Shown here piece by piece: positions 367 to 6,900 of a stretch of DNA of 6,900 bases (the first letter of the stretch is position 1; every line of letters begins with the position of its first letter). A program made the position numbers and the translations under genes. The DNA comes from Candidatus Wukongarchaeum yapensis (GTDB taxonomy: Archaea; Asgardarchaeota; Wukongarchaeia; Wukongarchaeales; Wukongarchaeaceae): NCBI GenBank assembly GCA_016840425.1, contig JAEOSI010000123.1:1-6900 (forward strand), given 5' to 3'. The notes below the pieces were generated by a model. The model saw only the letters and a program-made list of their open reading frames with translations. It ran no database searches and was not told where the DNA came from.

Positions 367-462
367 GGGCCCGTAGCTCAGCCTGGTAGAGCGGCAGGCT
401 CATAATTCCAGTCGATATGAGAAACCTGTTAGTCAAGGGTTCAAATCCCTTCGGGCCCACCA
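367..462 (+). tRNA. tRNA with CAU anticodon, most likely tRNA-Ile2 (agmatidine type); intron 405-423; CCA encoded
   Basis: Acceptor stem GGGCCCG/CGGGCCC; D-arm GCTC-AGCCTGGTA-GAGC; anticodon stem GCAGG/CCTGT with CAT at 401-403; T-arm AAGGG-TTCAAAT-CCCTT; ACCA at 459-462. The mature length is 77 nt. The G1-C72/G2-C71 GGGCCC acceptor is typical of archaeal Ile tRNAs. The initiator has A1-U72 and elongator Met usually starts GCC. Confidence 0.9.
405..423 (+). other. 19-nt tRNA intron at the canonical 37/38 position
   Basis: The intron's TGAG (418-421) pairs with CTCA (399-402). A 3' bulge AAA (422-424) precedes the CCTGT anticodon-stem strand. Confidence 0.88.
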
Positions 463-572: not shown

Positions 573-1604
573 TTATTTTTCGTTTTTTTGGTTGTTTTTT
601 GAAATTGACAAAAATAGTGAGCCTAAAAAGACTGCTAAAATCTCTATGAGAAGGCGGGTCATTACAGTTAATAGTATTCCTGCGGTGGCTATTACCTCGC
701 CTATTCCTCCGATTTTTGCTAGTACTAAGATTGCCATTACCGCGCCTGCCCCCAGTTCACCTGGTCCTGAGGAGACTCCTACGAAATTACTTAAACCTAT
801 GGCAAATATTAGAATTTTGAGGGACGCTTGTACGTCGAATGCTAAAAGGGCGAAGTATAATACTAGTATTTCTATTGCCCATCTGATTCCTGTTAGAAAA
901 GTTGCTGTTATCAAGGGCTTTCGATCGAGATGTATATATTGCTTTATTGCACGGTAATATCTTTCAACCACGTTCAGGATTTTTTCGGCTATTTTTTTTC
1001 CTATTTTACCTAGTTTACTGAAGACTTTAGCTAGTTTTTCAAAGAACGCTTTCCCTAATCTTTCCCACAAGAGAGCAAGGAGGATGAAGGACCATATTGC
1101 GAAAGCGATTGCTGCTGCCACTGTGAATAAACCCCACTCAGCAGCGTATTCTTTACCAGCAGTTAAGAAGAAAAATATGACCATTAATCCTATCGCTATG
1201 CAGTCTAAAAGACGGTAGATGAAAATGGCTGCGCCTACGTCTCCAAATTTCATTTTTAAAAGTCTACGTTTGACTTCAACCTTTCCTACTTCTCCTAGTG
1301 TTGGAGGGGATGCGACAGTCAAACTATAACAGAAAAAATAAACAGGCAGGAAGTTAGTTAGATTTAGATTTTTGTTTATTGCATTGAAAAGTTTGTAAGA
1401 TCGATAGCCTTTTGTCAGGAGTCTTAGTGTCGCAAAAGTGAGGACTAGGACTACAAATTTTATTTCCGCTTCTTTAAAGACGTTAATTAGTTTCGATGGA
1501 CCAACCTTCCAAATGACGAGGGAGAGAAGAAAGACAGTTATTAAAATAGCCATTTTACGATAGCTTTTCTGTTCTTCGTAAGTGTTTTCGGGCAGAAAGT
1601 TCAT
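573..1604 (-). CDS. UPF0104 / lysylphosphatidylglycerol-synthase TM-domain (flippase-like) membrane protein
   Basis: 343 aa with about 8 hydrophobic segments and family-like motifs: R after TM2 (KGYRS), P..LGEVGK, YRLLD, a central basic amphipathic stretch, PGELG and a late R (TRLL). A GGAG lies upstream of the ATG. Confidence 0.75.
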   Translation of the reverse strand: MNFLPENTYEEQKSYRKMAILITVFLLSLVIWKVGPSKLINVFKEAEIKFVVLVLTFATLRLLTKGYRSYKLFNAINKNLNLTNFLPVYFFCYSLTVASPPTLGEVGKVEVKRRLLKMKFGDVGAAIFIYRLLDCIAIGLMVIFFFLTAGKEYAAEWGLFTVAAAIAFAIWSFILLALLWERLGKAFFEKLAKVFSKLGKIGKKIAEKILNVVERYYRAIKQYIHLDRKPLITATFLTGIRWAIEILVLYFALLAFDVQASLKILIFAIGLSNFVGVSSGPGELGAGAVMAILVLAKIGGIGEVIATAGILLTVMTRLLIEILAVFLGSLFLSISKNNQKNEK

Positions 1605-1625
1605 AGTGTATGCTCCGTTTCAAAA

Positions 1626-1643
1626 GTTTAAAGTATCTTTTCC
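1626..1643 (-). promoter_or_regulatory. Candidate BRE/TATA for the flippase-like gene
   Basis: The minus strand reads GGAAAAGATAC-TTTAAAC, with the TATA centred about 26 nt upstream of ATG 1604, which is leaderless-type spacing. The same element reads CAAAAG-TTTAAAG on the plus strand and could be bidirectional. Confidence 0.35.
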
Positions 1644-1784
1644 TAGAGTCGAAAAGATTAGTGGTCGATATTATTTGATTTATAATAGGATATTGTTAGT
1701 AATAAGTTTTTGAGAGGAGATTATGAAAAAAGTGGAATGGTTTTTAATGGTTATTATTTTTATTTTTTTAGGTGATTGGGGGAA

Positions 1785-2420
1785 ATGTTGAGGCGTCGGC
1801 AGGAGCTTGAGATATTTTTGGAAAAGCTTAAGAGTTATCCGGATCCTAAGCTTGTTTTTGAGCAGTATACTACGCCTGCGAGGGTTGTTGCTAATGTTGT
1901 TTGGGAGATGGTTTTGAGGGGGGATTTGCCTTGTTATTCTGTTGTTGATTTGGGTTGTGGTACTGGGAGGTTTGGTATTGCTTGTGCTTTGATGGGGGCT
2001 GAAAAGGTCGTGGGCATCGATATTGATAGAGACGCTGTTTTTTTAGCGGTTGAAAATAGTAAGATAACAGAGGTGGAAAGAAAGGTTAAGTGGGTGGTAG
2101 GGGATATTGATGCGGTGAGAGGAAAGTTTGATTTAGCGGTTATGAATCCTCCTTTTGGGATAAAAGGGGTTGAACGGGATAAGCGTTTCGTTTTGAAGGG
2201 TTTGGAGCTAGCTCCGGTTGTTTATTCTTTGCATTTGGCCGGTGAAAAAACCCGAAAGTTTTTGAATAGGCTTGCTAAATCTTATAATGCAGTTGTAACG
2301 GAGATATTGAGAATGGAGTTTGAAATCCCGAAAACGTACAAGTTTCACCGGAAAAAATGGCACGTGATAAATGTGGATATGTTCAGAATTCAAAGAATTG
2401 AAACATTAAAAAACATTTAA
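1785..2420 (+). CDS. METTL5-family SAM-dependent N6-adenine RNA methyltransferase
   Basis: EQYTTP N-terminal motif, SAM motif I DLGCGTG, acidic GIDID and catalytic NPPF. I moved the start from TTG 1776 to ATG 1785 because the SD AGGTGA (1770-1775) abuts TTG 1776 but sits 9 nt before the ATG. Confidence 0.92.
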   Translation: MLRRRQELEIFLEKLKSYPDPKLVFEQYTTPARVVANVVWEMVLRGDLPCYSVVDLGCGTGRFGIACALMGAEKVVGIDIDRDAVFLAVENSKITEVERKVKWVVGDIDAVRGKFDLAVMNPPFGIKGVERDKRFVLKGLELAPVVYSLHLAGEKTRKFLNRLAKSYNAVVTEILRMEFEIPKTYKFHRKKWHVINVDMFRIQRIETLKNI

Positions 2421-2497
2421 GCTTTTATTTTGAATTGAGAATTTCTGTGGACGGGGTTGTTTAAGGTTTTTATTGCAACGAGGAGGTTGCTTTGTCC

Positions 2498-3124
2498 ATG
2501 AATAGAAAAGAAAACGAGGAAAATAAAGGAAAACGAGGAAAAATAGAGAGATTTGTTTTGCCCGGCGATTTGTTAGGAGTTATTGAGGAGTTTGTTCCTG
2601 GAGATAACTGTTACGTAGAGGACGGAAAAATCTATTCTAACATCGCTGGATATTTATTAGTTGATAAGGCTAAACATAGAGCAAACATTATCCCTGGAAA
2701 TCCGCGACAAAAACTTCCTAAAGTAGGAGATAAGGTTGCAGGTATAATTACATCCACTATGAGAGATTCAGCGACTATAGAGTTTTCCATGGTAAATGAG
2801 GAAAATATAGGGTTACCTTTTACAGGATTGGTGCATGTAAGCCAAATTTCTAAAAAGTTTGTTGAAGATGTTTTCGCAGCAATGCGGCGAGGGGACATTA
2901 TAAGGGCAAGAATAATTGATGTAAAGTTTTTGCCTTTTCAATTGGCTACTAACGAGGGAGATTTAGGGGTGATAAGAGCGCATTGTACTAAGTGTGGTGA
3001 ACCCTTAGTTAAGATGGAGAGAGACCTGCTCGAGTGTCCCGCTTGCGGTTTAAAGGAGAAAAGGAAGTTAGCGAAAGATTATATCCAGCCTCGCTTTTCC
3101 ACAAAAGATAAACACCACAACTAG
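2498..3124 (+). CDS. csl4: Exosome complex RNA-binding cap protein Csl4
   Basis: N-terminal VLPGDLLG..EEF.PG domain, S1 domain (PKVGD...G.VHVSQIS...GDIIRARI) and a C-terminal Zn ribbon CTKC-x14-CPAC ending in ERKLA-like EKRKLA. SD GGAGGT at 2482-2487. The alternative start is TTG 2492. Confidence 0.93.
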   Translation: MNRKENEENKGKRGKIERFVLPGDLLGVIEEFVPGDNCYVEDGKIYSNIAGYLLVDKAKHRANIIPGNPRQKLPKVGDKVAGIITSTMRDSATIEFSMVNEENIGLPFTGLVHVSQISKKFVEDVFAAMRRGDIIRARIIDVKFLPFQLATNEGDLGVIRAHCTKCGEPLVKMERDLLECPACGLKEKRKLAKDYIQPRFSTKDKHHN

Positions 3125-3173
3125 TCCTATATTACTTTTTTCTTAAAGCTTTTTTATAGAAGGGTATCTTTTA

Positions 3174-3827
3174 ATGGGACAATTTGGAAAAAAACATTTA
3201 AACATCTCAATAAAGAGCCAGAAAGAGTTAGAGATGTTTATTGATTTTATAACTAAGACGATTAAATACTGTAATTTTTCCCTTAAAACTAAAGGTTTTA
3301 ACTGCAAAATATCGATCTTGGGGGATAAAGCTGCTCAAAAATTGGCTATAACGACGATTAGAAAGATTCATTCAAATATCAAAAAAGCACTCTATCCTTC
3401 AGCAGAGGGTACTTATGCGTATAGTAGTCAGTTGTTGGCTAAAGTAGTTGGTTTCCCCGTTTCTCAGGAAATGCTGGTAGAGGTTTTGCAGAGGAAAGGT
3501 TTCAGAACCCATATCAAAAAAGATATTTTGGTCACTAATTTGGATTTAAACGGCGTGAAAGAAGAAGCGCAAGACTTATGGAGTAACATAAACTTCTTCA
3601 ATAATCTAAATATGGCCAGATCCTTAAGACACACCTTAGCAATCGCCGCCACCGTTATGGAATTATCACCCCAATTTATGGCTGAAATGGCTACGGAAAA
3701 AAGTTTAATAAAAACTTTAAATGGAAAATATTATTTGAAAGTAAACCCCCAACAAGCTCTAGAAGAACTTTTAGCTGAAAAAAGCCAAAACGAAGCAAAA
3801 ATCAGGCAAAGAAGTGAAAAAACATGA
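3174..3827 (+). CDS. Conserved archaeal hypothetical protein, probably DUF2067 family
   Basis: 217 aa lying between csl4 and rpo11, the usual position of DUF2067. Its sequence pattern fits my recollection of the family (EL..F...I; LYP..EG.Y.Y...L....G...S...LVEVL...G). This is recognition from memory, not an HMM result. Confidence 0.7.
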   Translation: MGQFGKKHLNISIKSQKELEMFIDFITKTIKYCNFSLKTKGFNCKISILGDKAAQKLAITTIRKIHSNIKKALYPSAEGTYAYSSQLLAKVVGFPVSQEMLVEVLQRKGFRTHIKKDILVTNLDLNGVKEEAQDLWSNINFFNNLNMARSLRHTLAIAATVMELSPQFMAEMATEKSLIKTLNGKYYLKVNPQQALEELLAEKSQNEAKIRQRSEKT

Positions 3828-4123
3828 TGATAAAACAGTTAAAACTCGAAGAAAAAATGATTGAAATCGTGATTGAAGGAGAGGGACACACCTTTCTTAA
3901 TATTTTAACCCAAACACTCCAAGAAAATCCAGACGTGAACTTTGCAGCTTACATAATAGACCATCCAAAGATAAGCCATCCACGGCTAGTAGTTTCTGTA
4001 AGCGATGGAACCCCCTTCGAAGCTATAATGGAAGCTACTAAAAAATTGGAAGAAAAAAGCCAAGAATTTATTGAAAAATTTACAGAAGCATTCAAAAAAT
4101 ACAAAGATAAAAAGGAAGAGTAA
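3824..4123 (+). CDS. rpo11: DNA-directed RNA polymerase subunit Rpo11 (L)
   Basis: 99 aa with the RPB11/RpoL signature IEGEGHTFLNIL...L...PDV.FAAY.IDHP. It overlaps the upstream stop via ATGA. Confidence 0.96.
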   Translation: MMIKQLKLEEKMIEIVIEGEGHTFLNILTQTLQENPDVNFAAYIIDHPKISHPRLVVSVSDGTPFEAIMEATKKLEEKSQEFIEKFTEAFKKYKDKKEE

Positions 4124-4166
4124 AAAGGAAAATTAGAGAGGAAAGGTTCCTGAGAGGTTACATATT

Positions 4167-4679
4167 TTGCCTAAAACTTCGAAGGGAGACAATGATAAAA
4201 GCGGGGAGTACTTAACTTCAGGCTGGGAAAATTACCTCAAAAAATTTAGATCTTTCCGTAAGATCCTTAAAAATAAAAATTTAGCACGATTAGGAGATGC
4301 CTTAATTAATTTTGCATATTCCCTAGCTAAATCAAGAATAGAAGGGATCCCGACAGGGGTAAAGGTGCAAGATAAAGCCCTAGCAGAAGCAATAAGAAAA
4401 ACGAAGTTGAAGAAAGTTTTGCCTCTAAGAAGCAAAGAAGATGCGCTAGGAGACGCCGTAGAAGCCCTATGCGCTTACACCTGGTTAAACCAAACGATCA
4501 CAATTGAAGAAATGGTTGAAACACTACAAAACGCCCTCCAAGGAGAAGACATGACGCACCCAAGACTGGAAAAAAAAGCTTGCACAAAAGCCTTCAACGA
4601 ACTACTAAACAAAATAGTCACCAGACACGAAAATTTAGAAAAAAAGATTATACAACCACAACAACAACAAAAATCATAG
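4167..4679 (+). CDS. Archaeal ribonuclease III-like protein (Mini-III-like, no dsRBD)
   Basis: RNase III-type motifs LARLGDALINF and LGDAVEAL..Y.WL in a single 170-aa domain. TTG start with SD GAGGT (4154-4158) 8 nt upstream. Confidence 0.8.
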   Translation: MPKTSKGDNDKSGEYLTSGWENYLKKFRSFRKILKNKNLARLGDALINFAYSLAKSRIEGIPTGVKVQDKALAEAIRKTKLKKVLPLRSKEDALGDAVEALCAYTWLNQTITIEEMVETLQNALQGEDMTHPRLEKKACTKAFNELLNKIVTRHENLEKKIIQPQQQQKS

Positions 4680-4710
4680 AAAAAATAAAGAGATTGCAGG
4701 GGCAGAAATC

Positions 4711-5310
4711 ATGAACCCTGAACTACCCACCATACACCTAGATAAGAAAGGATTACGTGTCTTAGGAATCGCTGAAAGCTTCTATAAAGAAAAGGGAGGC
4801 AAATCAGTTCTCGCAGGAGTTGTGATGCGAGCAGACAAAAACATCATAGATGGCACTACTTTCACCAAGATAACAGTAGGGGGCATGGATGCAACTGAAG
4901 GAACTTTAAAAATTTGGAACCAATTAAAAAGACCAGATATAAACGCGATATTTTTAAACGGCTGTGTTATCGCCATGTTCAACATAATTGATTTAGAAGA
5001 GGTTTGGAAGAAAACCGAAAAACCGCTAATATGCATTACCTACGAAGAAAGTGAAGGATTAGAAAAATACCTAGAAGAATTAGAGAACAAAAAAGAGAGA
5101 GAAGAAATATATGAAAAAAACGGACCAAGAGAGAAGATAACAGTTCACACAGGACACGAAGTCTACATAAGAGCTCTTGGCATAAATACCGACCAAGCCA
5201 TAGAACTTCTAAATAAATTCATTATCCAAGGCTCAAAAGCAGAACCAATAAGAGTGGCAAGAATACTAGCAAGAGAAATACTAAAATTCCTCCATAACTC
5301 AAACGGGTAA
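4711..5310 (+). CDS. DUF99 / UPF0215 family protein (endonuclease V-like fold)
   Basis: RVLGIAESF, LAGVVMR.D..IDG, ITVGGMDAT, G...AMFNIID...V, PLI.I.YE and a C-terminal EPIRVARILA, all typical of DUF99. Confidence 0.85.
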   Translation: MNPELPTIHLDKKGLRVLGIAESFYKEKGGKSVLAGVVMRADKNIIDGTTFTKITVGGMDATEGTLKIWNQLKRPDINAIFLNGCVIAMFNIIDLEEVWKKTEKPLICITYEESEGLEKYLEELENKKEREEIYEKNGPREKITVHTGHEVYIRALGINTDQAIELLNKFIIQGSKAEPIRVARILAREILKFLHNSNG

Positions 5311-5329
5311 TAGAAAGAAGACTAAGCAT

Positions 5330-5390
5330 AACATAAAAGAAAGAGAGGGAGAAAGCACGCAAACAAGAAAAAAAGAAGCGTGCAAATGAT
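5330..5390 (-). terminator. Candidate atpB terminator between convergent genes
   Basis: After the atpB stop the minus strand reads GCACGC-TTCTTTTTTTCTTGTTT-GCGTGC and then a pyrimidine tract TTTCTCCCTCTCTTTCTTTT. This is a 6-bp inverted repeat (5355-5360/5378-5383) with U-rich tracts. Confidence 0.5.
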
Positions 5391-6824
5391 TTATTCTTTC
5401 TCTAATTGAGGCACAATAGGTTCAGTACGATACGAAGGATGCCACTTCTGAATAGTATCCGGCTTACACCGCTTCAACTCACGCTCAGGCAAAATAGACA
5501 ACAAATCCCACATAGTAGTCAAAGTATCCTCAATCGCTCTATCTTCATTTCCTTGATTAATCATCTTCTGCTCAAAACCATCAGCAAACTCCAAATACTT
5601 CCTATCACGCGGAGTTAAAGCCTCTTCACCGACCACCGCAACCAAGTCACGAATATTCCGACCCTCAGCATAACCAGCATAACAAGAATCAGAAACCTCA
5701 CGATGGCTTTCATGCGTATAACCCCTGCCGATAGCCTCCTTCATTAGCCGAGATAACGACGGCAACGGATCAATCGGCGGGAACAGCCCTTTACGATGGA
5801 GACCACGGTCTAAAATGATCTGTCCTTCCGTTATATAACCAGTTAAGTCCGGAACGGGGTGCGTTTTATCATCACTAGGCATCGTCAAAATAGGCATCTG
5901 CGTAATAGTCCCTTTACGCCCTATAATACGCCCCGCCCTCTCGTATATAGTAGCTAAGTCAGAATACAAATAGCCCGGATAGCCTCTTCTTCCTGGTACT
6001 TCTTCTCGGGCTGCGCTGATTTCTCGTAAAGCTTCTGCGTAGTTGGTCATATCGGTTAGGATTACTAGCATGTGGTAGTCGTGTTCGTAGGCTAGGTATT
6101 CTGCTGCTGTTAGGGCGAATCTTGGGGTGATTAGTCGTTCTACTGCTGGGTCGTCTGCTAGGTTTAGGAATAGGACTACTTTTTCTAGGGCGCCTGAGCG
6201 TTCGAAGTCGTTTCTGAAGAATCTTGCTTCTTCTGCTGTTATGCCCATGGCGCAGAATATTACTGCGAATTCTTCTTCTTCTCCGAGTACTTTTGCTTGT
6301 CGTGCTATTTGTGCTGCGCAGAGGTTGTGGGGTAGTCCGCTTCCTGAGAAGAGGGGTAGTTTTTGTCCTCTTACTAGGGTGTTCATTCCGTCGATTGTGC
6401 TTATTCCGGTTTGGATGAATTCTCGTGGGTATTGTCTGGCGTAGGGGTTTATTGGTGATCCTGTTATGTCCCAGTAGTCGTCTGGGACGATGGCGGGTCC
6501 GCCGTCTATTGGGTCTCCTTTTCCTGAGAATACTCTTCCGAGTATGTCGTTGCTTAGGGCGATTTTTATGGTTTCTCCGAGGAATCTTATGCTTGTTTTT
6601 TCGCTTACGTCTAGGCCTCTTGTGCCTTCGAATACTTGTACTACTGCCATGTTTTCTGTTATTTCTAGGACTTGTCCTGTTCGGTCTGTGCCGTCTGGTC
6701 CGGTTATTTTCACGATTTCTGCGAAGCCTACGTCCCTTGTTTTTTCGACGAAGACTAATGGGCCTTGTATGTCTGTGGCTGTGTGATATGTGCGGGTGCT
6801 TGATAGTTTGGAAGATTCTACCAT
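5391..6824 (-). CDS. atpB: A/V-type ATP synthase subunit B (non-catalytic)
   Basis: 477 aa with QTGISTIDG, the degenerate P-loop region [50 protein letters not shown] and PSLSRLM. SD GGTGA (6836-6832) lies 7 nt before the ATG. Confidence 0.98.
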
Positions 6825-6900
6825 TTGTTTTTCACCACGTAAAAATTTTCAAAAGTATGGGTTAGATTTATGATTGAAAGTTTCATGTTGTTTTTTTTTT

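What the first reader, a model, noticed from the sequence alone, without database searches (positions are those of the whole stretch)
1700..5980. Kilobase-scale sawtooth of G+T versus A+C strand skew across the six-gene cluster
Seen (hand counts of plus-strand G+T per 60 nt): 50/60 at 1921-1980, 34/60 at 2881-2940, 17/60 at 4561-4620, 23/60 at 5161-5220 and 20/60 at 5581-5640. Synonymous positions drift from almost all T/G in the methyltransferase to mostly A/C in the last genes, although all six genes are on the same strand. The A/C bias continues into the oppositely oriented atpB, so it follows the DNA strand and position rather than gene orientation or amino-acid content. Inference: an abrupt rise followed by a gradual decline resembles replication-skew domains but at about 4-kb scale. 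It suggests closely spaced, positionally fixed initiation or nicking sites, or another strand-asymmetric mutational process.
Basis: partly seen in the sequence, partly recalled or inferred. Interest (0 to 1): 0.6.

Follow-up and report, generated by a model that had tools for sequence, protein, structure and literature searches.

The report
Strand-skew sawtooth in Asgard archaeon
In this uncultured Asgard archaeon the freely variable DNA letters drift from almost all G/T to almost all A/C along a six-gene cluster and snap back in the middle of the ATP-synthase B gene. This is one tooth of a genome-wide, actively maintained strand bias whose cause is unknown and which I did not find described in the papers I could search.

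Summary
Plus-strand third-codon keto skew (K3) falls from +0.9 at 1801-1920 to about -0.85 at 5401-5520. It crosses the convergent gene border into atpB and jumps to +0.9..+1.0 at 5979, inside atpB. The pattern is genome-wide. It follows the DNA strand rather than gene orientation, affects four-fold sites, non-coding DNA and amino-acid content, and is shared with a congeneric genome. It is actively maintained: class-changing substitutions are about 3-fold rarer in saturated stretches. Rises sit at intergenic spacers of every orientation type and grow with spacer length; falls lie inside genes. The atpB rise is one of about ten strong in-gene rises. There is no 4-kb period, no anchoring motif, no neighbour-base signature and no replichore pattern. 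Codon selection, classical replication or transcription skew, inversions and artefact are excluded. The best reading is a directional DNA transaction (synthesis, repair or heteroduplex correction) launched outward from open spacer DNA. Which process it is remains open. The scan had already reported this phenomenon on other contigs of this genome and in other Asgard genomes.

The parts
573..1604 (-). LPG_synthase_TM-family membrane gene. It forms the preceding tooth: plus-strand K3 is +0.5 at its left (3') end and falls to about +0.05 at its right (5') end.
   Evidence: Pfam PF03706; K3 track
1605..1775 (.). AT-rich divergent spacer with an up-step. Non-coding keto skew is +0.18 to +0.35 and leads into K3 = +0.9.
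   Evidence: divergent spacers show the largest mean up-step at four-fold sites (+0.29)
1776..2420 (+). SAM-dependent methyltransferase gene, the G/T-rich start of the tooth (K3 +0.90 falling to +0.15; gene mean +0.51).
2492..3124 (+). Csl4-like exosome subunit gene (ECR1_N + S1), K3 +0.06.
3174..3827 (+). DUF2067 gene, K3 -0.07 (from +0.25 to -0.38 along the gene).
3824..4123 (+). RNA polymerase subunit L (Rpb11-like) gene, K3 -0.32.
4167..4679 (+). Ribonuclease III-like (PF11469) gene, K3 -0.38 (from -0.15 to -0.74 along the gene).
4711..5310 (+). Endonuclease dU (PF01949) gene, K3 -0.47 (from -0.25 to -0.65 along the gene).
5391..5978 (-). 3' third of atpB (codons about 283-477). Plus-strand K3 is -0.59, so its own codons end mostly in G/T. 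The A/C-rich end of the tooth crosses the convergent gene border into this stretch.
5979..5979 (.). Abrupt in-gene up-step (d = 1.36 between 300-bp flanks) within a few codons, at the codons for the conserved GYPGYLY motif of atpB.
5979..6824 (-). 5' two-thirds of atpB (codons 1 to about 282). Plus-strand K3 is +0.90 to +1.00. Nearly every codon ends in A or C; most exceptions are ATG and TGG. This is the start of the next tooth, which in G001 continues for at least 1.3 kb beyond the contig end, across non-coding DNA and genes on both strands.

Best explanation
Shown: this is a real, inherited and actively maintained substitution bias between the keto bases (G, T) and the amino bases (A, C) at weakly constrained sites. 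Its sign depends on position relative to anchor points. Anchors lie almost always in intergenic spacers, whatever the orientation of the flanking genes, and rarely inside a gene (here atpB at 5979). On each side of an anchor, the strand that runs 5'->3' away from it is enriched in G and T. Between two anchors the plus-strand skew therefore falls from positive to negative. The window holds one long tooth (about 1700 to 5979) and the start of the next. Inferred: the bias is the footprint of a directional DNA transaction that starts in open, AT-rich spacer DNA and runs outward for 0.3 kb to several kb. Candidates are tracts of DNA synthesis, repair or heteroduplex correction in which G.T-type and A.C-type mispairs are made or corrected unequally on the two strands. 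Of the specific processes, I rate recombination or repair tracts with mispair-type-biased correction at about 0.35. I rate dispersed replication initiation or lagging-strand priming at about 0.2, and promoter-proximal effects of bidirectional transcription at about 0.2. The rest is unknown. The confidence given (0.55) is for the class 'anchored, directional DNA-level process'. The descriptive part I hold at about 0.9.
For: DNA-level, not gene-level:
- Neighbouring genes' plus-strand K3 correlates at r of about 0.5 for same-strand, convergent and divergent pairs.
- Non-coding DNA follows its flanks (r = 0.58).
- First and second codon positions follow the third (r = 0.55).
- In G001 the saturated domain upstream of atpB spans the end of a gene on the same strand as atpB, a whole gene on the opposite strand and non-coding DNA.

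Anchors at spacers:
- The four-fold-site up-step is -0.05 at tight tandem junctions (15 bp or less), +0.13, +0.19 and +0.27 with growing gaps, +0.29 at divergent and +0.15/+0.23 at convergent junctions. The mid-gene control is -0.02.
- Steps with d > 0.6 number 172 up and 16 down at gene borders, against 43 up and 107 down inside genes.

Active maintenance:
- Over 344 kb aligned with G001, transitions at four-fold sites fall from 0.154 to 0.050 from unskewed to saturated stretches, and A<>T/C<>G changes fall from 0.040 to 0.018. G<>T/A<>C changes do not fall (0.047 to 0.063).
- Protein divergence is alike in the saturated and unsaturated parts of atpB and psmA.

Mispair-type symmetry:
- C/T and A/G sites shift by the same log-odds (2.85 and 2.92).
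- There is no dependence on neighbouring bases.
- GC content at four-fold sites is constant.

Tract-like behaviour and link to homology:
- In-gene rises lie at codons for highly conserved motifs (atpB GYPGY, psmA GGVRPFG, an ABC ATPase DEPTG).
- The same polarity and roughly the same place in atpB recur in three other genomes of two other families.
- Between G000 and G001 the atpB border differs by a block of about 45 codons with 46% third-position differences.
Against: No process was observed directly; everything about mechanism is inferred from composition. A double-strand break with ordinary 5'->3' resection and deamination of the exposed strand predicts the opposite polarity (my derivation). 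A break-based model therefore needs the bias to come from correction or resynthesis. There is no excess divergence near up-steps (0.24 against 0.21-0.24), so anchors are not mutational hot spots. Inteins, which mark homing-endonuclease sites, show no flip in this genome. In-gene anchors lie in GC-richer coding DNA, which is unlike the AT-rich spacers. Genes expected to be highly expressed (actin, ribosomal proteins L4 and S7, RadA, the 5' part of atpB) are A/C-ending throughout. This hints at an extra, expression-linked component that I did not resolve.
Confidence: 0.55

Rival explanations
1. Closely spaced replication initiation or lagging-strand priming sites. Forks or long Okazaki-type intervals start at the up-steps. 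The lagging-strand template is G/T-enriched, and mixed fork or priming polarity between neighbouring sites gives the decline, as in mammalian skew N-domains.
For: The polarity is right (A/C to the left, G/T to the right of the step) and the shape fits. GC and TA skews have the same sign. There are long near-linear declines (window; contig C6, from +0.98 to -0.78 over 7.7 kb, crossing a gene on the opposite strand). Anchors lie in AT-rich spacers irrespective of promoters. The fall of class-changing divergence roughly follows 1-K^2, as expected for a mixture of two polarities. N-domains are described in PMC3320577 and PMC2764438.
Against: It would need hundreds to thousands of start sites in a 2-Mb genome, and typical teeth decay within 0.3-0.9 kb. 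Saturation at +/-1 on both sides of one point requires that point to be used almost always. Two of the strongest points lie inside atpB and psmA at GC-richer conserved codons. There is no ORB-like or other motif at the steps. Contig means show no two-replichore bimodality. Spontaneous deamination of single-stranded DNA should hit C more than A, but both classes shift equally.
Confidence: 0.2
2. Transcription-associated asymmetry. Every AT-rich spacer fires transcripts outward in both directions (sense and antisense), and the non-template strand near each start site accumulates C>T and A>G changes.
For: Outward transcription with the usual sign (non-template strand G/T-rich) gives the observed polarity. 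5' ends of genes are coding-strand G/T-rich at four-fold sites (+0.18, fading over about 600 bp). Divergent spacers give the largest step. A TATATA lies 29-35 bp upstream of the atpB step (5944-5950). Gene-end skew patterns tied to transcription are known in fungi (PMC3315797).
Against: Convergent spacers, which need no promoter, have steps nearly as large as promoter-bearing ones, and spacer length matters more than the number of promoters. Gene orientation has no mean effect (K3c -0.025). The 5' two-thirds of atpB, which should be strongly transcribed, is saturated with the opposite sign, as are actin and ribosomal protein genes. The saturated domain in G001 covers genes on both strands. G001 lacks the TATATA.
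Confidence: 0.2
3. Selection on codon usage or mRNA properties. A/C-ending codons would be optimal in highly expressed genes and G/T-ending codons would be used elsewhere.
For: The most A/C-ending genes include actin, ribosomal proteins L4 and S7, RadA and small GTPases. Synonymous sites in saturated stretches evolve about as slowly as amino-acid sites.
Against: Both pure 'dialects' occur within single genes (atpB, psmA). Convergent neighbours have opposite coding-strand signs. Non-coding DNA follows. There is no reset at tight gene junctions but there are resets at spacers. Genes lying antisense within a domain take the opposite codon endings.
Confidence: 0.04
4. A mosaic made by inversions, imports from relatives with a strong replichore skew, or chimeric assembly of two populations joined at conserved sequence.
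For: In-gene steps lie at conserved motifs, where recombination or assembler switches would occur. The atpB border differs between G000 and G001 by a block-like stretch.
Against: Border steps are about 10:1 upward, whereas a mosaic predicts 1:1. The same steps occur in an independent assembly, G001, and in two single-contig genomes (G013, G023) for atpB. Genes stay intact across the steps, so inversions cannot explain them. Saturated stretches are kept pure by ongoing constraint while their protein divergence is normal.
Confidence: 0.04

Closest known systems
Skew N-domains of mammalian genomes (replication-fork-polarity gradients; PMC3320577, PMC2764438; fork directionality by OK-seq, PMC4729899)
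   Same: Summed TA and GC skew (the keto skew) shows abrupt upward jumps and a decline between them. The sign follows the DNA strand, not the genes.
   Different: By my recollection, N-domains are about 1 Mb long with amplitudes around 0.1, in eukaryotic chromosomes with mapped initiation zones. Here teeth are 0.3-8 kb long and reach +/-1 at synonymous sites, in an archaeon without any replication data. Rises sit at nearly every spacer.
[quoted passage not shown] 2021, PMC8256042)
   Same: Both show intense, correlated GC and TA skews that are strongest at third codon positions, with abrupt changes between G+T-rich and C+A-rich coding on one strand within 1 kb. Amino-acid content is pulled along in both. 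The mechanism is unknown, and a keto/amino mispair idea has been proposed.
   Different: GRINS are defined as duplicated stretches (>500 bp, >80% identical) inside one gene cluster and are tied to gene conversion between repeats. Here the pattern is genome-wide in single-copy genes and spacers, and no repeats were found in the window.
[quoted passage not shown]
   Same: A gene-anchored gradient that affects four-fold sites and untranslated flanks, and so is not explained by selection on proteins.
   Different: The sign is opposite (fungal coding strands are C-biased at the 5' end and G-biased at the 3' end), it concerns GC skew only, and the amplitude is small. It is tied to gene orientation, whereas here multi-gene domains cross genes on both strands.
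Replichore skew of bacterial chromosomes and single-strand-exposure gradients of vertebrate mitochondrial DNA (textbook knowledge, not tested here)
   Same: The strand that is copied late or left exposed becomes G/T-rich. Mitochondrial gradients reach near-saturation at four-fold sites and change linearly with position.
   Different: Those systems have one or two switch points per replicon. Here there are hundreds. C>T does not dominate over A>G here.

Membership tests
Replication-associated skew N-domains | Abrupt upward jumps of TA+GC skew separated by declines, independent of gene orientation | tested here: met
   41 up against 9 down at d > 0.8; window and C6 profiles; neighbour correlation independent of orientation
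Replication-associated skew N-domains | Jumps coincide with experimentally mapped replication initiation zones | not testable with these tools
   No replication data exist for this uncultured organism. Contig means give no replichore signal.
Replication-associated skew N-domains | Domain size set by inter-origin distance (tens of kb to Mb) | tested here: not met
   Spacing between strong up-steps has a median of 2.75 kb; typical decay is 0.3-0.9 kb
GRINS | Intense, positively correlated GC and TA skews, strongest at third codon positions, with abrupt sign changes | tested here: met
GRINS | Stretch is duplicated (>500 bp, >80% identity) within the same gene cluster | tested here: not met
   No direct repeat longer than 30 nt in the window; the pattern covers single-copy housekeeping genes
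Classical replichore (leading/lagging) skew | One sign over each half of the replicon, switching only at origin and terminus | tested here: not met
   The sign changes every few kb within contigs; contig means are unimodal
Transcription-associated strand asymmetry | Sign set by gene orientation (coding strand always biased the same way) | tested here: not met
   Mean coding-strand K3 is -0.025 with SD 0.25; convergent and divergent neighbours share the plus-strand sign; atpB carries both signs
Translational codon-usage bias | Confined to codons, uniform within a gene, scaled by expression | tested here: not met
   Non-coding DNA follows; in-gene flips; no reset at tight gene junctions
Palindrome-anchored skew sawtooth (earlier scan notes on GGCC / AGGCCT sites in other archaea) | Up-steps sit on one short palindrome | tested here: not met
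   Scan of all 4-mers and 6-mers: only AT-rich words show a small positive step, and no palindrome stands out

The most novel reading that the evidence does not exclude
Nearly every open, AT-rich spacer of this Asgard genome is a start site of a directional DNA transaction: dispersed replication initiation or priming, or promoter/spacer-associated recombination initiation with strand-biased mismatch correction. Its polarity map has been written into the synonymous sites. The sequence alone would then be a high-resolution read-out of fork or repair-tract direction, and would point to eukaryote-like dispersed start sites or recombination hot spots in a close archaeal relative of eukaryotes.
Probability: 0.2. 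Interest if true: 0.9.

Novelty: new variant of a known kind. Interest (0 to 1): 0.68.

Why it matters
Strand compositional asymmetry is the main sequence-only read-out of how DNA is copied and repaired. Here it reaches saturation (95-100% of synonymous sites) and switches sign every few kb, even inside essential genes. It constrains synonymous sites about as strongly as selection constrains amino acids. If the cause is a positionally anchored DNA transaction, the genome sequence itself maps that process in an uncultured Asgard archaeon, where no replication, recombination or transcription data exist. There are practical consequences too. Codon-usage, dN/dS, horizontal-transfer and gene-prediction methods that assume homogeneous synonymous composition will be misled in this lineage. 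The antisense strand of saturated genes also carries long spurious open reading frames (for example 6425-6865 +).

Tried and rejected
- **Short palindrome or other word as anchor:** none found.
- **Homing-endonuclease or intein sites as anchors:** G013 atpA shows A/C before and G/T after its intein. In G000, however, the inteins in PolD-DP2, MCM and an EF2-like gene are merely unskewed inserts in A/C-rich exteins, with no flip.
- **Loss of mismatch or deamination repair:** NucS/EndoMS (PF01939) and endonuclease V (PF04493) are present in G000 and G001 as in most relatives. UDG and MutS were not checked.
- **Periodicity near 4 kb:** none.
- **Replichore-level bimodality of contig means:** none.
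- **Sequence-context signature of a deaminase:** none.
- **Mutational hot spot at up-steps:** no clear excess divergence.
- **Using the complete genome G013 as a model of large-scale layout:** its 400 kb are mostly unskewed, with atpB as an isolated island.
- **The search for related loci for close named relatives:** it returned only distant atpB genes. These served as a control set. I did not verify the taxon name myself.
- **Mutation bias versus fixation bias from divergence alone:** the 1-K^2 curve and the biased-fixation curve both fit.

Full report
**Setting.** The window is the whole 6900-bp contig C120 of a 2.16-Mb, 277-contig assembly with 38% GC. Earlier notes of this scan call the organism a Hodarchaeales-type Asgard archaeon. 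I did not verify the name. The genome does encode an actin, and its relatives in the genome collection are of the same phylum only, apart from one congeneric genome (G001) and one genome of the same order (G002).

The genes are, in order:
- a tRNA with an insert (367-462);
- an LPG_synthase_TM membrane gene on the minus strand;
- six plus-strand genes: a SAM methyltransferase, a Csl4-like exosome subunit, DUF2067, RNA polymerase subunit L, a PF11469 RNase III-like protein and endonuclease dU;
- the A/V-type ATPase B subunit (atpB) on the minus strand.

**The observation.** The five hand counts are exact. I measured the keto skew K = (G+T-A-C)/N on the plus strand at third codon positions (K3) and at four-fold degenerate sites (K4). 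K3 of the six genes falls stepwise: +0.51, +0.06, -0.07, -0.32, -0.38, -0.47 (r = -0.35, p = 9e-34). At finer scale it runs from +0.90 at 1801-1920 to -0.85 at 5401-5520. Small partial resets occur at the 31-80-bp gaps between genes. The A/C-rich state crosses the convergent border into the 3' third of atpB.

At 5979, within a few codons, it flips to +0.9..+1.0 (Fisher p = 6e-69). In the first 281 codons of atpB nearly every third position is A or C on the coding strand, and most exceptions are ATG and TGG. This step is the second largest in the assembly. Among 80 atpB genes from other phyla the largest comparable step is 0.48.

**It is genome-wide and follows the DNA, not the genes.**
- Keto skew of 300-bp windows has SD 0.147 against a binomial 0.058.
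- Per-gene K3 has SD 0.25 and ranges from -0.84 to +0.94, with no mean effect of orientation.
- The plus-strand K3 of neighbouring genes correlates at r = 0.51, 0.56 and 0.50 for same-strand, convergent and divergent pairs.
- Spacers of at least 150 bp follow the four-fold sites of their flanks (r = 0.58).
- First and second codon positions follow the third (r = 0.55).
- In the congeneric genome G001, the saturated stretch that begins in atpB continues for at least 1.3 kb upstream. It covers non-coding DNA, a whole gene on the opposite strand (whose own codons therefore end in G/T) and the end of another gene.

Selection on codons or mRNA cannot do this.

**Shape.** Sharp steps between 300-bp flanks are mostly upward: 41 against 9 at d > 0.8, and 95 against 41 at d > 0.7. 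Splitting them by location is more telling. At gene borders and spacers there are 172 up and 16 down (d > 0.6). Inside genes there are 43 up and 107 down. So rises sit at spacers and falls lie inside genes.

At four-fold sites the mean up-step depends on the junction:

| Junction | Mean up-step |
|---|---|
| Tight tandem (gap 15 bp or less) | -0.05 |
| Tandem, gap 16-60 bp | +0.13 |
| Tandem, gap 61-150 bp | +0.19 |
| Tandem, gap over 150 bp | +0.27 |
| Divergent | +0.29 |
| Convergent, gap 60 bp or less | +0.15 |
| Convergent, gap over 60 bp | +0.23 |
| Mid-gene control | -0.02 |

Spacer length matters more than the presence of promoters. Typical teeth fade within 0.3-0.9 kb. Strong ones last for kilobases: the window's tooth is 4.3 kb, and on contig C6 the skew drops from +0.98 to -0.78 over 7.7 kb and runs through a gene on the opposite strand.

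There is no period. Spacing between strong up-steps has a median of 2.75 kb and an interquartile range of 1.6-4.6 kb, and the autocorrelation decays monotonically. Contig means are unimodal, so no two-replichore signal is visible. No 4-mer or 6-mer, palindromic or not, marks the steps, and no repeats lie at the window's steps.

**The in-gene rise in atpB.** Only about ten in-gene rises exceed d = 0.8. Several sit at codons for very conserved motifs: atpB GYPGYLY, proteasome alpha GGVRPFG and an ABC ATPase DEPTGDLD. G001 shares the atpB and psmA rises.

The same polarity occurs at roughly the same place in atpB (codons about 313 and 365) in three genomes of two other Asgard families. Two of these (G013, G023) are single-contig genomes whose DNA is otherwise mostly unskewed. 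Other Asgard atpB genes lack it.

Between G000 and G001 the border differs by a block of about 45 codons with 46% third-position differences. By my estimate that is more than gradual drift since their split would give.

**Nature of the force.**
- GC content at four-fold sites stays at 0.32-0.34 in all states. T/A and G/C odds both shift about 5-fold.
- Two-fold C/T sites and A/G sites shift by the same log-odds (2.85 and 2.92).
- The shift does not depend on the 5' or 3' neighbour.

There is thus no enzyme-like context signature, and no dominance of C>T over A>G as expected for spontaneous deamination of single-stranded DNA (established chemistry, not tested here). The symmetry fits an asymmetry between G.T-type and A.C-type mispairs, either in their making or in their correction. 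The GRINS authors speculated similarly (PMC8256042).

**It is maintained now.** Over 344 kb aligned between G000 and G001 (88% identity), four-fold-site divergence changes from unskewed (|K4| < 0.2) to saturated (|K4| > 0.8) stretches as follows:

| Substitution class | Unskewed | Saturated |
|---|---|---|
| Transitions | 0.154 | 0.050 |
| A<>T and C<>G transversions | 0.040 | 0.018 |
| G<>T and A<>C transversions (class kept) | 0.047 | 0.063 |

Protein divergence is alike in the saturated and unsaturated parts of atpB (0.060 and 0.083 per codon) and of psmA. Third-position divergence differs about 5-fold in atpB (0.072 against 0.38).

The low synonymous divergence is therefore not recent transfer. 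It is a constraint as strong as that on amino acids. The fall with |K| fits both a mixture of two opposite mutation regimes (1-K^2) and a fixation bias, and I cannot tell them apart. Divergence is not raised near up-steps.

By my estimate from the unskewed-site divergence, only about a fifth of an approach to equilibrium fits into the time since the two species split. The switch points must therefore be much older than that split.

**Distribution.** Among nine Asgard genomes sampled, only the two of this genus have strong patches: SD 0.146-0.188, with 4.5-11.7% of 300-bp windows beyond |0.3|. The others have SD 0.07-0.10 and almost none. NucS/EndoMS and endonuclease V are present in this genus, so their loss is not the cause.

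**Mechanism.** Polarity is informative. At a rise, each strand is G/T-rich on the side that lies 3' of the anchor along that strand. That is the polarity of three known situations:
- a bidirectional replication origin, or lagging-strand priming at fixed sites;
- outward strand displacement or outward transcription, in which the non-template strand is exposed;
- heteroduplex tracts formed by 3'-end invasion, if G.T-type mismatches are converted to the donor more often than A.C-type ones (my derivation).

It is the opposite of what deamination of resected 3' overhangs at a break would give.

Transcription with the usual sign fits 5' ends. It fails for convergent spacers, for the saturated 5' two-thirds of atpB, and for domains that cover genes on both strands.

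Dispersed replication starts fit the shape, as in N-domains (PMC3320577). They would, however, require hundreds to thousands of start sites, some of them inside genes.

Recombination or repair tracts fit several features: the kilobase scale, the mispair symmetry, the lack of hot-spot mutagenesis, the conserved-motif positions of in-gene anchors and the block-like border shift. They are otherwise unsupported, and inteins show no flip here.

I therefore commit only to the class: a directional DNA transaction launched outward from open spacer DNA. I put the recombination or repair-tract version first (about 0.35), then replication starts or priming (0.2) and transcription (0.2).

Genes expected to be highly expressed tend to be A/C-ending throughout. 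This may be an extra component that I did not resolve.

**What is known.** I found no description of kilobase-scale keto-skew teeth in archaea. I also read PMC12999951 on archaeal skews, PMC11291895 on complete Asgard genomes and PMC12680538 on Asgard replisomes; none mentions it. The closest described things are:
- mammalian N-domains (same shape and sign, 100- to 1000-fold larger scale, far smaller amplitude);
- GRINS (same intensity and keto/amino nature, but defined by repeats, a criterion not met here);
- fungal gene-end GC skews (gene-anchored gradient of opposite sign).

The scan itself has already reported this phenomenon on other contigs of this genome, including the psmA step, and in other Asgard genomes. 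This window adds another tooth and a second in-gene rise.

Noticed in passing
window 367-462 (+): A tRNA gene of 93-96 nt (Rfam 60.8 bits). ARAGORN reads it as tRNA-Tyr with an odd 'ata' anticodon at position 36. The extra length suggests an intron and the anticodon call is probably wrong.
   Followed up: no
window 5391-6824 (-) and contig end: atpB stands alone. No atpA lies upstream in G001 (a PyrE/GfcR-like gene and an MtnA-like gene lie there instead), and no atpD lies downstream, where the neighbour is a convergent gene. The atpA-like match of this genome is on contig C158.
   Followed up: partly
window 6127-6444, 6425-6865, 6490-6786 (+): Long open frames antisense to the saturated part of atpB (105, 146 and 98 aa). 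They are a by-product of the extreme skew and could be mis-called as genes.
   Followed up: no
G013:C1:605058-614079 (L031): In this single-contig Asgard genome atpA carries an intein (1152-aa frame), and a 1253-aa open frame lies between atpA and atpB. The atpA exteins are A/C-ending just before the intein and G/T-ending just after it, while the intein itself is unskewed.
   Followed up: partly
G030:C88:30030-33203: The atpB of this Asgard genome matches in two pieces (residues 10-263 and 260-468) within one 1071-aa frame. This implies an intein near residue 260, about 20 codons from the place where the skew flips in G000.
   Followed up: no
G000 contigs C242 (2260-7158 +), C152 (12001-17100 -), C137 (2572-5334 +): There are inteins in PolD large subunit, MCM (two) and an EF2-like GTPase. 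The PolD and MCM inteins are compositionally neutral islands inside A/C-ending exteins (strongly so in PolD, moderately in MCM), so they look younger than the skew. The EF2-like gene shows no clear extein skew.
   Followed up: partly
window 4711-5310 (+): An endonuclease dU (PF01949) gene, which acts on deaminated cytosine in DNA, lies inside the skewed cluster. This is probably a coincidence but is relevant to any deamination hypothesis.
   Followed up: no
L002 (G001:C55) 1322-1421: A 100-base run of N in the spacer upstream of atpB in the congeneric assembly, flanked by long A runs. The G000 contig ends in a T run at the matching place, so this homopolymer-rich spacer breaks both assemblies.
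   Followed up: no
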